A stretch of 64,000 nt of DNA from Thalia democratica (taxonomy: Eukaryota): NCBI GenBank assembly GCA_965202585.1, contig OZ241832.1, positions 62,806,001-62,870,000 of the forward strand. Direction: 5' to 3'. Numbering within the stretch: the stretch's first letter is position 1; the number at the start of each line of letters is the position of its first letter. Of this stretch, positions 3,001 through 63,000 are shown one piece after another. The position numbers are program-made.

Positions 3001-6000
3001 ATAGTCATCAAGTTAATCACAATTATATTAATACAAAGGGACTTTGACAGTTGAGTAGTGACGAACGTTTTTAGTAGCTTCACATGACTCTTTTGACCAT
3101 TTATTTATATCAGAATCATAACATAGTATGACTTTTGAAATATTATAAAAATTCAATATTTTACCCCCAACTAAAGAAGATTCGCCTTCAAATGAAAAAA
3201 AACTTCGTCCTTGAAGTGTTACAAACATATTGCTAGTTTTATCAAAAACTTCACAATTAGCGTTTAAATCTGCACCACCAATGACAAACAATTTGCTTTT
3301 AACACAAACTAAACTATGATTAGCTCTCTCTTCAATCATACTTGGCATTGGTGTCCAAGTATCACCATATACATCATATGATTCTACTGTTTTTAAAACA
3401 TTTAAATCATCTCCACCACCTGAAACTACAATACTTTCTTCAAATATTGTACAAGCTGCACAAGATCTTTTTTCCTTCATTTTTGCAATTTGTTTCCATT
3501 TAAATAATTTTGCATCAAATTCAAGACTAGAATTAAAACAATCAGTTTCATTATCATCACCACCAAAAAGATAAATATTATCAACATAAGCACACGAACA
3601 AAAGTTTAGACGTTCATCAGGTATATCAGTTACTTTAATCCATGTATTAGTTACAGGTGAATATTTTTCAACTGATTTGATAGGACCTTGTTTATTAAAT
3701 CCACCAAAAACATATATTTCTCCTTTAAGGTATACTGATATTAAATAATACCGTTCTTCTAACATTGGAGGAAGATCCTTGTGTTTCTCAAAATTGTTCA
3801 CATCTAACACCTTTACTTGATTTATGGCTTTTTCTTCCTCATCATCTACACCTCCACAAATAAGAGTATTGAACATGTTTTGGTTACAGTGTCTACTTTT
3901 ATTATGAATAAACGGTAAACGGTACACATTCTGGTAATAACAATCTCTGTTTTTCAATACTTCAAGACAATCCTTATTCTTTGAAATACAAGAAGAAAAA
4001 CTTATGAGATGTTTTAAACACTGATCTGATAAAAGATTAAGACGAACTCTTAATAATAATTGTTTTGCGAATTTGCTACGTTCTTCTATCTTGTAACTCA
4101 ACCATTTATTTGATGTATTGTAAATTTCAACTTCTGAATCAATTTGTAAACTAGAACTTGCAAGTATTTTAAAGACAGTATTAAAATCTAACTCTAGAAA
4201 GCTTTCTTTTTCAACTATCATACTAAAACAACGTTCTATGTATCTAAAAACAGTTAAGTAAAGATCTGACAGGTTGAATTTTGAGGCTAGCTGATAAAAC
4301 AATACTGCATTTTGAATTTGTAGTTTTTCGTTTAGTTTTTCAACTGCTTTACTTATCGAATGTTCATTTAATGAATGTTTAGTTAATTTCATAGCTGATG
4401 TTAGTTCACAATGCTCTCGAGTCGACTCATTTCATCTGAAATTTTTTAACTCAAATTAATTCAGTTATAGTATATTTAGCTGTTGATAGGTGTTACCAAG
4501 TACATTACCTACATTATATGTAATTTTTAGCTAAAATTAAATAATTACTACTTGTTTATAAAAAATAACATTAATTAGTTAATGTAGAAGTTTTAAAAAT
4601 TTTGAAGTTTTGAAAAATTTTTTGTGTTTTTTATTATCCGTTTTTTTTATGTTTAAAATATTAAAATTGTATTATATTATAATTGAATAATTTTTTCTTA
4701 TTATGTTATACAAGTTACAAATGTCAATTTAAATAATAATATTTCTGCAAATCAAAAACATACAACACACATCTTTACAAAAAGATTCATTTCTAAGATA
4801 TCAGCAAACATTATCATTATGATTTTAAATATACATTTTTAACACTAACGTAAAAAAAACTACACCACAGTACTTGCATTATACTTTAAATACTAAAAAT
4901 ATAAAAATTGTTTATATAAATAGCAAAAGCATCTTAAAATGTGTTAGTATAACTTACTTTTTATCAAATTAATTAGTGTTATATATTTGAAGCATTTAAT
5001 TATAACATGTACTTAACAGATATTACATATCTAACACAATTTCTTAAAAAAAAACTTGAATAATTATGTTTTAAAACTAAATATTTGTTGACTAAACAAC
5101 GGATACAGTTAAAACAACAATTAAAATCTAATCTGCAATACTTTATTGTACTGTAAGAGTCAGTTAAGTAAGTATAAAAAGTATGCATTACACTAATTGA
5201 AATCAATTTTCAAAGTTCATTTCTATAAAAAGGTTAAATTAGATAAACATAACTGTTTTTCTCTTCAAAGTTATTAGTTGAACAATATGTACAGAATAAA
5301 GTTGTTACTTACACATAACACTGACTTACCCATCTTATTAAAGCCATCAGAAATTTGCAAAGTTTTACCTTGGAAACTAACTTCAGAATTTTCCTTGCAT
5401 AATTTTAGAAAACTATTACGTTTATCAACATTACAAGCGTTCAAATTTCCTTCACAATTCTTCACACCACTTCCGCTTAAACTGATTCTCGCAGACATGA
5501 CTTTAAAATTTTTATTATCCAGTATATTTTTACAGCTGTACTAAAAGTAATTTAACACTTTTAACAGTTAAAACTAATAAGTCAAAGTTTGAATATTTTT
5601 GAAATAAAAACCATTTGTAACTAACTGTTTTTTTATTTTATTAATACTATTTTCTTTTTAAAATACTTTAATACTAGTATTTAAAATATATTTAACGTCT
5701 AGTTATTAATATGATAATATTTAGGGTGTACGGTTAAGGTATAACTAAACTAACACTAACAATTATATTTAAATTTATTTTAGAACTAAATGATATTAAA
5801 AGTATTATTACCAATTGAAACAACTAGGCATGAACTTTGTTGGTTTTATTTATCTTATCTAACACTAAAAATATATCAAGAACATCATACTTTATATAAT
5901 ATTTTATATGTAGTCAAAACTTTTAAACAAGAATCAAATTTAACAGGAATAAACTTTAAGAAGGGACAATTATCTACTTGGAATTCAAATCAAAACATTA

Positions 6001-60000: not shown

Positions 60001-63000
60001 TGGTGATAATAACAACACAAATTGTGAAGTTTTTGACAAAACTAGCAATGTGTTTGTTACACTTGAAACACCTGAATTTTGGTCATATGGGGTGAAAGCC
60101 ATTTCATTTAGAATTAAAATATTTGTCTTTTTAAATTTTACTCAAAAAGTTTTATGTTATGATGTTGTTAAAGATGAATGGTCAAAAGAATCATGTATAG
60201 TTACTGAAAATATTTCAGATTATTCAGCTGTCAAAATACCTTTATTTTAAAAAACATAGCATGAACTAGATGTTTCTTTTTTTGATGAGGTATTAAACTT
60301 TGAGTAAGCTAACTTAAACAACTAATTATTATTATTGTTTAAGTTTAAGCAGTTATTTCGTTTTTCAGTCTCTTTATACTTGTTAAGTGCTAAACTTGTT
60401 TTTTTAATTAGTACTAAAGATAATTGAAAAAAATTTAACGATGATTTTTAACATCAAAACAAGCAATTTCCTTAAATAAAATTTAAACTAACCGATTTAA
60501 ATACGTTTTGTGTTTATTAATAACAATTTAGCTACCGTTAAAAATTTTTTATATCACTTTTTGTTTGTAAACTTTATATATATTTAAAAGCTTTAATAGT
60601 TTCATAAATTTATAAACTTATACTTATACTTATTAAACGTTTTGACTGAATAGAAATTTCATGAAATAATAGTAAAGAATTTATTTTATGAATGTTTTTT
60701 ATGGTGTATAGTTTTCGAACATAAAACATTCGTATAAAGTTAATAAACCTACTAAAGTTATTGTGTTTCTACTTAATATGAAAATTATTTGACTTCTTAC
60801 TTTCTTAGTTCAATAAATCTGTATAACCTATATAAAGAAATTTGTTACAGTGTAAAAGACGTTAAAAGGTATCTGTGGTGTGCGACTAGATAACCGAAAG
60901 GTTTTTTTATGCAACAGGTCCTATTTATCTTTTTTTTACGTCAGCGACTTTTTTTCGTGAAATAAACTATACATGACGTAAACAAGATGTTAAAAAATGA
61001 TATACTTTTCAGAGTTGATAAAATTTTACTATTCCGATCTGATAAAATTTTAAATATTACTGAAATGCTTACTGCATTTACTAGCTCTATTTACAAAAAC
61101 TCGTAAGCACTTTAAATATTTATAAAAGTTTTAACTATTTAAAAACCTTAAGCATTTTTTTGTTATCAAGTATTTAAAGTATCTATTTTATATATGATTA
61201 CTTTTACACGTAAAAAGCTAATAGTTATGACATTTAATTAATTTCAGTACGAAAATACTATTTGCAAGTATTATTTTAATTATTTTTATATTAAAAAGCA
61301 CGTTTTATTCTAAACAAAATCAAAATAATTTTAAATTAAAATAACCACAACTTTCTATTAAGTAAAAAAAGAAGTTAAAACGTGTGCTTAACATTAGTAA
61401 TTAATAATTTTTTTACTTATAATTATACTAAAAGAATCAAAGTTGATAATAAGAATTGTTAGATTTGATCTAGAAAAGATAAGGATCTTGATCTAGAAAA
61501 TTTTAAATAATGTTATGTTTTTTAGGTAATAATTTGTATAATTTGGATTTTTTTTCTTAAAAAAAAAGTTACTGTAATCAATTTCATGTTACGAATTAAA
61601 AATCAGCATTTAATAAGAGCTATTAAATAGCTATATAAAAAAGACAAAATTGAAAATATTTCACAATTTTTAAAAGCAAATTAAAAATCAGATTGAAAAG
61701 TAAAAGTACTTATTTCGTTATACGATTGGGACATTGAAAAGGATACTTAAATTTTGCAGTAATTATTTAAACAGTCTTGTATAACTAATTTTAAAAAATT
61801 TTTGAAAATATTGTAACATATACAAATGTATCTACAAAAAAAAAGTGTTTGTTTAAAACTCTAAACTAAAATTTAAACAGTAGTTATATTATTATTCATC
61901 CTATAAATAAAAACAAATTGTTCAGTAATCTTCTTTTGTTGTACAACATATGTTTCTGTGTGTTAATGAATCAAGACACTTTAACTGGGTTCTGTAAAAA
62001 ATTATTACTGTAATGAAAGAATAGAAGCATAGAATAATATGGGTGTATACATGTTTTTTATCAAAATAAAATAATTTCTACAAATAATAGTTGATAATAG
62101 GTAAAATATTTAATATTAAATCCGACTGTTATAAAACTATTTAATATTTGTAATTATTAAGTCTTAAACAAGTAAAGTAAACTAAAATACACAACAAAAC
62201 AATAAATCATAATATAAACAAAGCACTCACGTTAATGGGAAAGATAACTGATTCAAATTTACTGTTGTTAAGCAATGAAGGAAATACATTCTTTACATTT
62301 AATAATTACGTCACAATATAAATGAGGTTGTTTCAACTGTTTAATTTGTATTGCAAAGTTTGTCAATTTAGTTTTTATGTTTGTAATCTATTTGAACAAA
62401 ATAAAACATCAACCATTAGTTAAAGAATTAATAAAATTTAATAAAACTTAACAACGGCGAAGACAATAAAAGTCACAAAAACTCAATGTAACATGTTTTT
62501 ATATATTAAATGCTTGTAAAGGTTAAATCAAAGTTATGTACAATTAGGAAGCAGATTTAGTTTAAATGTAAAACTAAAACATTAAAAAGTTAAAATTTAA
62601 GAAATCAAAACACAAAAAAAAACAAACTTGTTATTGACTTACAAACTACTGACCGATAATTAAGTTGCAGCGACATAAATAAAATCACAATGACTAAAAA
62701 TTACATATAAACTGTGTTTAATAATTATAAAAATATAAAAAAATAATTGGTTGATAAAGTAGCAGTCGGGTGTTTAAATTAAATGTCTCATATAGATATT
62801 TTAAATATTTAATAAGTAAACATGTGTTATATATGAAAGTTAAAATGTAAAATAACAAGGTGGTTATACAGTAACCTCTCGCTTATTTACGCACATTGTG
62901 TCCACAGAAAAAGTGCGTAAAGATATGAGAGATCGTAAAGATACGAGAGGTATCAAATATACTTACTATAATGGCTGTTTTTTTATATTGCTTCTAGTTA

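What the first reader, a model, noticed from the sequence alone, without database searches (positions are those of the whole stretch)
3028..60250. Expanded kelch-like family that appears to keep only the C-terminal half of the BTB domain
Seen: five paralogues with the same two-exon, phase-1 layout. Established: KLHL proteins are BTB-BACK-Kelch; BTB dimerises and, with the 3-box, binds CUL3. By eye, exon 1 plus the first residues of exon 2 match the second half of BTB: LNISYVD..SFLNFCK..EVNF..KNLQ and KIKLEEIS...IF.NFL.FC resemble I.L..(V/I).....F..LL.F.YTG.I.I...NV, and SNKLDV....RCEII resembles A..LQ...L...C..F. The canonical YTG is replaced, and I found no N-terminal half (AHR.VL...S.YF) in the window. 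Inference: CUL3-uncoupled or monomeric decoy adaptors, or a re-purposed N-terminal module.
Basis: partly seen in the sequence, partly recalled or inferred. Interest (0 to 1): 0.65.

Follow-up and report, generated by a model that had tools for sequence, protein, structure and literature searches.

The report
Kelch gene cluster with decayed BTB
Five clustered copies (two intact) of a kelch-type gene keep the BACK and propeller parts of a ubiquitin-ligase adaptor but only the last two helices of its BTB domain, so the protein may no longer pair up or grip cullin-3 in the usual way.

Summary
The five paralogues exist and share a two-exon, phase-1 layout. Only g2 (22468-24820 +) and g4 (49109-46445 -) give a clean spliced frame. 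g1 has a 5-nt insertion just after the acceptor, and g3 and g5 are pseudogenes.

Exon 2 encodes two helices, then BACK, then a six-bladed Kelch propeller. A profile of its start aligns with the last BTB helix and 3-box of KLHL3, KLHL11 and KBTBD2.

Exon 1 (56-61 aa) is a real, conserved first coding exon with 25 database relatives. No test shows it is BTB-like. Pfam found no BTB in 0 of 30 sequences at E<=10, no BTB chain appeared in PDB profile searches, and AlphaFold gave one long helix.

No N-terminal BTB half appeared among 182 upstream same-strand ORFs, or anywhere in six frames. An unseen distant exon is not excluded without transcripts.

Best reading: a KLHL-derived BACK-Kelch family, evolving by gene birth and death, with a decayed BTB. 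This is a new variant of a known kind, of moderate interest. The spliced protein was never joined, and the chain-pair fold never ran.

The parts
22468..22651 (+). g2 exon 1 (ATG to last exon base; 61 codons + 1 nt, phase 1)
   Evidence: ATG context and the G|GTAAGT donor are invariant in 4 aligned copies. An HMM built from 25 database ORFs only scores this exon at E 3.6e-30.
22652..23402 (+). g2 intron (751 nt), GTAAGT...TTTCAG
   Evidence: alignment A1. Identity among copies is 61-66% with many non-3n gaps.
23403..24820 (+). g2 exon 2, intact, stop included. Residues 2-35 are two helices (A4/A5-like), 38-66 the 3-box, up to ~175 BACK, and 183-471 a six-blade Kelch propeller.
   Evidence: The AlphaFold model has mean pLDDT 92.2.
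48932..49109 (-). g4 exon 1 (59 codons + 1 nt, phase 1). This is a divergent copy, 31-38% identical to the others.
   Evidence: The database-only HMM scores it at E 2.3e-4, with the next best ORF at 0.032.
47836..48931 (-). g4 intron (1096 nt)
46445..47835 (-). g4 exon 2, intact, stop included
   Evidence: dN/dS against g2 is 0.50 (bootstrap 0.39-0.65).
5330..5498 (-). g1 exon 1 (56 codons + 1 nt). It has a 15-nt in-frame deletion relative to g2.
3028..4435 (-). g1 exon 2. The long ORF 3028-4431 is intact, but a net 5-nt insertion 9 nt after the shared acceptor puts a stop in the spliced frame. Only a cryptic acceptor 20 nt downstream keeps the frame.
37921..38104 (+). g3 exon 1 (open)
38995..40390 (+). 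g3 exon-2 relic. The acceptor CAG is changed to CGG, there is an in-frame TAA at codon 3, a 1-nt deletion, and two further in-frame stops.
57795..57978 (+). g5 exon 1 (open)
58857..60250 (+). g5 exon-2 relic. Three frameshifts (1, 1 and 4 nt) break it into four ORF pieces.

Best explanation
This is a cluster of five recently duplicated copies of a lineage-specific gene family descended from BTB-BACK-Kelch (KLHL-type) substrate adaptors. At least 169 database relatives exist.

Shown:
- Each gene unit is about 3-3.6 kb: roughly 0.65 kb of alignable upstream DNA, a short ATG exon, one phase-1 intron and one large exon.
- The large exon encodes two helices equivalent to the last two BTB helices (A4/A5), then the 3-box, the rest of BACK and a six-blade Kelch propeller.
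- The first exon encodes a polar, K/N/S-rich stretch of ~60 aa. It has one conserved amphipathic motif and a conserved initiator Met.
- The intact copies evolve under relaxed purifying selection (dN/dS about 0.5), while 2-3 of the 5 copies are already broken. That is a gene birth-and-death pattern.

Inferred:
- The BTB core (B1/B2/A1/A2/B3) has been lost or has decayed beyond recognition.
- A4/A5 survive because they form the four-helix bundle with the 3-box that holds up BACK.
- The proteins therefore still bind targets on the Kelch face.
- They cannot form the canonical BTB homodimer, and they lack the loop that clamps cullin-3.
- At best they keep the weaker groove contact for the cullin-3 N-terminal extension. 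They may instead act as cullin-independent binders or as competitors of full adaptors.
For: - Architecture: BACK and Kelch by Pfam, with no PF00651 in 6 of 6 window ORFs at E<=1. The AlphaFold model has pLDDT 92.2 with helices 2-16, 22-35, 38-50 and 54-66, followed by a propeller. Foldseek matches KLHL/KEAP1 Kelch domains and KBTBD2 8h36_A over 485 columns.
- A5 and 3-box alignment: KLHL11 at E 6e-12, KLHL3 at 2e-11, KBTBD2 at 4e-11.
- The four-helix-bundle role of these helices is taken from passages of PMC3597819. The core-fold layout is taken from passages of PMC1257465.
- No BTB N-half: 0 of 182 upstream same-strand ORFs of >=30 aa at E<=1. 0 of 95 other ORFs of >=48 aa at E<=0.01. 0 hallmark-motif hits in six frames. 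No frame of >=20 codons is open in g1, g2 and g5 upstream of exon 1 apart from 14 codons abutting the ATG.
- Exon 1 is the first coding exon. Met is at the aligned start in 29 of 30 sequences. This includes 5 of 5 database ORFs that open further upstream. In-frame stops lie 5-14 codons upstream of the ATG in all five copies.
- The duplicated unit ends about 0.65 kb upstream, yet g1 and g2 show dN/dS 0.53 since duplication.
- 0 of 120 listed relatives carry PF00651, and 0 of 108 extend more than 43 residues before the anchor.
Against: - No transcript evidence was available, so an upstream coding exon further than about 0.65 kb from the ATG, or diverged beyond Pfam, cannot be excluded.
- Fourteen in-frame codons stay open upstream of the ATG in g1, g2 and g5. 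A possible acceptor (conserved ACAG, or TTTTAG) sits there.
- All database relatives are ORF calls on unannotated contigs. They would miss upstream exons by construction.
- The exon-1 hydrophobic pattern is compatible by eye with B3-A3. Profile-sequence searches are not as sensitive as profile-profile or full-length fold prediction, which I could not run.
- Loss of dimerisation and of cullin-3 binding is inference only.
Confidence: 0.5

Rival explanations
1. The gene models are incomplete. One or more unseen upstream exons encode the N-terminal BTB half, and the proteins are ordinary BTB-BACK-Kelch cullin-3 adaptors.
For: - The frame stays open for 14 codons upstream of the ATG in 3 copies, with a conserved ACAG / TTTTAG that could be an acceptor.
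- Database relatives are ORF calls that cannot show splicing.
- 8-18 kb of repeat-rich DNA lies between the copies.
Against: - 0 of 182 upstream ORFs hit BTB, and no hallmark motif appears in six frames of the whole window.
- There is no conserved open frame in the alignable upstream DNA.
- The start Met is conserved in 29 of 30 sequences. A second Met 11-12 codons upstream is shared by g4 and three database representatives, which is the pattern expected of start codons.
- The duplication unit ends about 0.65 kb upstream, yet the copies stayed under selection.
Confidence: 0.2
2. Exon 1 is a true structural remnant of BTB (strand B3, helix A3 and the extended link). It still packs on A4/A5, giving a folded half-BTB module with a re-purposed surface.
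For: - It sits in the right place, immediately N-terminal of the A4/A5 helices.
- It has a conserved amphipathic motif with invariant F, C, K and F positions.
- AlphaFold pLDDT is 87-88 over residues 31-50.
- The intron falls in the link between A3 and A4 as laid out in PMC1257465 (passages).
Against: - Pfam BTB matched 0 of 30 sequences at E<=10.
- PDB profile searches found only eL38 and SVBP at E 0.3-1.2 and no BTB chain.
- The Atlas gave no usable hit.
- The exon alone is predicted as one long helix with no strand.
- The spacing between the motif and the A4-like helix is about 20 residues longer than I recall for KLHL proteins, and it varies between g4 and the others.
- The composition is K/N/S-rich.
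Confidence: 0.2
3. The whole cluster is a decaying array without function, and g2 and g4 are open only by chance.
For: - 2 of 5 copies are clearly dead and a third is doubtful.
- dN/dS of about 0.5 is high.
Against: - dN/dS is below 1 in 1000 of 1000 bootstraps for all three pairs.
- About 23 stop-creating changes are expected between g2 and g4 under neutrality, and none is seen.
- Splice sites and the ATG are kept.
Confidence: 0.07

Closest known systems
BTB-BACK-Kelch (KLHL/KBTBD) cullin-3 substrate adaptors, e.g. KLHL3 (4hxi), KLHL11 (3i3n, 4ap2), KBTBD2 (8h36)
   Same: Last BTB helix, 3-box, BACK and six-blade Kelch propeller, in the same order. The nearest Atlas clusters are KLHL3, KLHL11 and BACK-domain proteins at 0.95.
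   Different: There is no detectable BTB core: no PF00651 and no B1-A2. The N-terminus is a short, separate, family-specific exon. Dimerisation and the cullin-3 clamp loop described for KLHL11 (PMC3597819, passages) have no counterpart that I could find.
Vertebrate KLHDC7A-type proteins (a predicted BACK domain plus Kelch, no BTB)
   Same: BACK followed by Kelch without BTB (PMC12035522, passages).
   Different: KLHDC7A has a long unrelated N-terminal region and is a single gene. Here there is a short N-terminus, the A4/A5 helices are kept, and the family is large. Orthology was not tested.
Lineage-specific KLHL10-like expansion in the termite Zootermopsis nevadensis
   Same: A large expansion of kelch-like genes in one lineage. 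A few members were scored by Pfam as BACK+Kelch only: 4, beside 37 BTB-BACK-Kelch (PMC4348803, Table 4 passage).
   Different: In the termite the BTB-less form is a minority. Here none of the 120 listed relatives carries PF00651, though they are ORF calls and not gene models. Relatedness was not tested.
Poxvirus BTB-Kelch proteins (e.g. vaccinia A55, 6i2m)
   Same: There is weak profile similarity of the BACK region (E 7e-4). Poxviruses also carry truncated family members; that point is recalled, not checked.
   Different: These are cellular, spliced genes in a repeat-rich eukaryotic locus.

Membership tests
BTB-BACK-Kelch (KLHL/KBTBD) | BTB core fold (B1/B2/A1/A2/B3 with A3-A5), recognised as Pfam PF00651 | tested here: not met
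   No PF00651 in 6 of 6 window ORFs at E<=1, in 0 of 30 exon-1 sequences at E<=10, in 0 of 182 upstream ORFs, or in 0 of 120 relatives by precomputed Pfam. The spliced protein itself was not scanned, because the joined step was left out.
BTB-BACK-Kelch (KLHL/KBTBD) | C-terminal BTB helices A4/A5 packed on the 3-box | tested here: met
   The profile alignment starts in the last BTB helix of KLHL3, KLHL11 and KBTBD2. AlphaFold predicts helices 2-16 and 22-35 before the 3-box helices 38-50 and 54-66. The packing geometry was not inspected.
BTB-BACK-Kelch (KLHL/KBTBD) | BACK domain (PF07707) | tested here: met
   E 4.1e-20, 5.7e-19 and 4e-19, all above the curated cut-off.
BTB-BACK-Kelch (KLHL/KBTBD) | Five to six Kelch repeats forming a beta-propeller | tested here: met
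   Kelch_1 scores E 1e-26 to 2e-37. The model has six blades. Target-normalised TM-score is 0.87-0.92 to KLHL2, KLHL12, KLHL17 and KEAP1 Kelch domains.
BTB-BACK-Kelch (KLHL/KBTBD) | Homodimerisation through BTB and binding of cullin-3 | not testable with these tools
   The organism's cullin-3 is not at hand. The one complex-prediction job never ran.
BACK-Kelch proteins without BTB (KLHDC7A-like architecture) | BACK plus Kelch with no BTB in the complete protein | tested here: inconclusive
   This is met for the two-exon model. Completeness of the model rests on sequence arguments and not on transcripts.

The most novel reading that the evidence does not exclude
A whole expanded family of 100 or more genes in this lineage has shed the BTB core. 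It keeps only A4/A5, the 3-box, BACK and Kelch behind a new short N-terminal exon. The resulting Kelch binders are monomeric and either work without cullin-3 or titrate substrates away from full adaptors. That would be a natural family-wide 'decoy adaptor' solution.
Probability: 0.3. Interest if true: 0.55.

Novelty: new variant of a known kind. Interest (0 to 1): 0.3.

Why it matters
If the two-exon models are complete, this family is a natural experiment. It would show what the BACK-Kelch part of a cullin-3 adaptor can do without the dimerising, cullin-clamping BTB core. It would also show that the two helices which survive are the ones that buttress the 3-box. That bears on how CRL3 adaptors are built and on how decoy or cullin-independent kelch proteins arise. 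If an upstream exon exists, the locus is an ordinary lineage-specific KLHL expansion with two or three dead copies.

Tried and rejected
- Exon 1 of g2 searched among longer proteins: 21 candidates, none at E<=1. This is weak evidence only.
- Profile search of 1.84 billion representatives with the exon-1 alignment. It found 25 short ORFs and no spliced or long protein. One 744-aa hit with six short stretches was set aside as low-complexity.
- Atlas look-alike search for exon 1: no usable hit.
- tblastn of upstream ORFs of g4 against the other copies. The positive control (g4 exon 1) did not score, so the test has no power.
- Three database proteins with longer N-termini (P0070, P0079, P0067) might have carried exon 1 fused in one frame. 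The exon-1 HMM finds nothing below E 0.1 in any of the 120. Their starts align with the start of exon 2 with an insertion after the first helix, so the idea was rejected.
- The start Met might have been a conserved internal Met of BTB helix A1. Residues around it are not kept in the divergent members, and a second upstream Met explains the open frame better, so this was rejected as unsupported.
The precomputed Pfam column served instead.
- Chain-pair fold of the exon-1 peptide with residues 1-170 of exon 2 never ran. The queue was full or the machine gave no answer at every attempt, so there is no verdict.
- Rfam and tRNA scans of the window: nothing.
- Not used: one homologous-protein search, and the genome-contig scan (bacteria and archaea only).
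Full report
**The window**

The window is 21-28% G+C per 4 kb and has no N. It holds no tRNA or Rfam match. Apart from the kelch genes, no ORF gave a Pfam hit above its cut-off among those scanned. That covered 182 upstream ORFs of >=30 aa at E<=1. It also covered 95 of the 104 other ORFs of >=48 aa at E<=0.01; the nine dropped overlap exon 1 on either strand. The genes have spliceosomal introns and the DNA between them is repeat-rich. 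I do not take the contig for human, and I did not try to name the organism.

**Checking the observation**

Stop-to-stop ORFs, a self-BLAST and tblastn/HMM scans show exactly five copies of a large kelch exon and five copies of a short upstream exon. They are:
- g1 (-): 5498..3028
- g2 (+): 22468..24820
- g3 (+): 37921..40390
- g4 (-): 49109..46445
- g5 (+): 57795..60250

Every short exon has an ATG and ends in G|GTAAGT after 169-184 nt, which is phase 1. The large exon starts at TTTCAG| in g1, g2, g4 and g5.

Exon 1 is 74-79% identical among g1, g2, g3 and g5, with only 3n indels. The intron is 61-66% identical with many gaps.

Only g2 and g4 give a clean frame across the splice. I counted their lengths as 533 and 522 codons and did not join the exons.
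- g1 has a net 5-nt insertion 9 nt after the acceptor, which brings a stop into frame. Only a poor cryptic acceptor 20 nt downstream would rescue it.
- g3 has lost the acceptor (CGG) and has one frameshift and three in-frame stops.
- g5 has three frameshifts.

**Exon 2**

Pfam finds BACK (E 4e-20 to 6e-19) and Kelch repeats (E 1e-26 to 2e-37) in g1, g2 and g4. It finds no BTB at E<=1.

I made an AlphaFold model of g2 exon 2 from 111 aligned family members (A4). It has mean pLDDT 92.2. It shows helices 2-16 and 22-35 (pLDDT 57-83), then helices 38-50 and 54-66, more helices up to about residue 173, and a propeller. Foldseek matches KLHL2, KLHL12, KLHL17 and KEAP1 Kelch domains at target-normalised TM-score 0.87-0.92. 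It also matches KBTBD2 (8h36_A) over 485 columns.

A profile of the first 170 residues of the five copies (A3) hits three BTB-BACK structures: KLHL11 (E 6e-12), KLHL3 (2e-11) and KBTBD2 (4e-11). The alignments begin in the last BTB helix of those proteins and run into the 3-box.

In KLHL11 the two 3-box helices pack on BTB helices alpha5 and alpha6 as a four-helix bundle (PMC3597819, passages seen). In the nomenclature of PMC1257465 these are A4/A5, joined to B1/B2/A1/A2/B3 by the A3 hairpin (passages seen). So exon 2 keeps A4/A5, the 3-box, BACK and Kelch. In the family alignment these two helices are the least conserved part: 2.5-2.7 bits of entropy against 1.8 for BACK.

**Exon 1**

A profile of the five exon-1 peptides (A2) against 1.84 billion representatives found 26 proteins at E<=1e-3. 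Twenty-five are short ORFs of 52-110 aa. Their tails read through a conserved GGTAAGT donor.

In 20 of the 25 the match starts at residue 1. The other five open further upstream but still have Met at the aligned position. In total 29 of 30 aligned sequences have Met there. g4 lacks it but shares a Met 11-12 codons upstream with three database representatives.

An HMM built from the 25 database ORFs alone recovers g1, g2, g3 and g5 at E 1e-27 to 4e-30. It recovers g4 at 2.3e-4, with the next ORF at 0.032. Exon 1 is therefore a real, family-wide first coding exon.

I found no evidence that exon 1 is BTB-like:
- Pfam finds BTB in 0 of 30 sequences at E<=10, and no family is hit by more than one member.
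- Profiles of 5 and of 30 sequences against 177,635 PDB sequences give only eL38 and SVBP at E 0.3-1.2.
- The Atlas gives no usable hit.
- AlphaFold on exon 1 alone, with 30 sequences, gives one helix (residues 8-60), pLDDT 73.2 and pTM 0.35. A fragment folded alone is weak evidence.

The peptide is rich in K, N and S. It has one conserved amphipathic motif.

**Is there an upstream exon?**

The evidence against one:
- No BTB hit among 182 same-strand ORFs within about 6 kb upstream of the five copies.
- No hallmark B2/A1 pattern in six frames of the window. The patterns were recalled from memory.
- No frame of >=20 codons open in all of g1, g2 and g5 within 1.2 kb upstream, other than exon 1 itself and the 14 codons abutting its ATG.
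- In-frame stops lie 5-14 codons upstream of each ATG.
- Alignable DNA ends about 0.65 kb upstream, yet g1 and g2 show dN/dS 0.53 (0.38-0.73) since they duplicated.

The evidence for one:
- The 14 open codons and a possible acceptor just upstream of the ATG.
- All relatives are ORF calls on unannotated contigs.
- I saw no transcripts.

I put the two-exon coding model at about 0.75.

**Selection**

dN/dS for exon 2 is 0.50-0.55, below 1 in 1000 of 1000 bootstraps for each pair. About 23 stop-creating changes would be expected between g2 and g4 under neutrality, and none is seen. With two or three dead copies among five, this is birth-and-death evolution under relaxed constraint.

**The wider family**

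The g2 exon-2 query found 169 proteins at E<=1e-3, of which 120 were listed. All are unnamed, with 36-67% identity. By my reading of the table 114 of the 120 carry BACK and none carries PF00651. None of 108 aligned members extends more than 43 residues before the anchor column. None of the 120 holds an exon-1-like stretch. The intron position is therefore family-wide.

**Comparison with what is known**

The closest relatives are KLHL/KBTBD adaptors. BACK-plus-Kelch without BTB is known in KLHDC7A (PMC12035522, passages). It is also a minority class in a termite KLHL10-like expansion (PMC4348803, Table 4 passage).

My searches for a described expanded BTB-less BACK-Kelch family found none (listings and abstracts only). 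That is not proof of absence.

**What was left out**

The spliced protein was never assembled, so all searches and folds were done exon by exon. The chain-pair prediction never ran.

**Verdict**

This is a new variant of a known kind, with interest 0.3.

Noticed in passing
window 6423-12126: A large tandem or nested array of units of about 1.5-2 kb, 77-79% identical to each other. No Pfam hit was found in its ORFs.
   Followed up: partly
window 5573-6238, 7119-7480, 10647-10994, 16555-17087, 19599-20201, 21650-21885, 31685-32038, 37305-37760, 54906-55503, 57120-57218: A dispersed repeat of about 350-650 bp (66-80% identity) with at least ten copies. One lies upstream of g1, g2, g3 and g5, and others lie away from any gene. 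It is probably a mobile element or part of an older, larger duplication unit.
   Followed up: no
window 17826-18008 and 19360-19489 (also 18066-18170 / 18408-18505): A G+C-rich 41-42-bp minisatellite with a palindromic CCGG-rich core followed by a T run. It is striking in a 24% G+C sequence and gives a spurious 119-aa ORF at 19299-19658.
   Followed up: no
window 40813-41510; related 26785-27078: A 327-bp unit repeated 2.1 times at 97% identity, with a 75%-identical copy 14 kb away. There is no Rfam, tRNA or Pfam match.
   Followed up: partly
window 4410-4435 (- strand): The insertion that disables the g1 splice frame creates a short palindromic stretch made of two adjacent restriction-site-like hexamers. 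It looks like a small local duplication.
   Followed up: partly
proteins P0067, P0070, P0079: A subfamily of database relatives carries an insertion of about 25-50 residues between the first and second N-terminal helices of exon 2, so this region tolerates large changes.
   Followed up: partly
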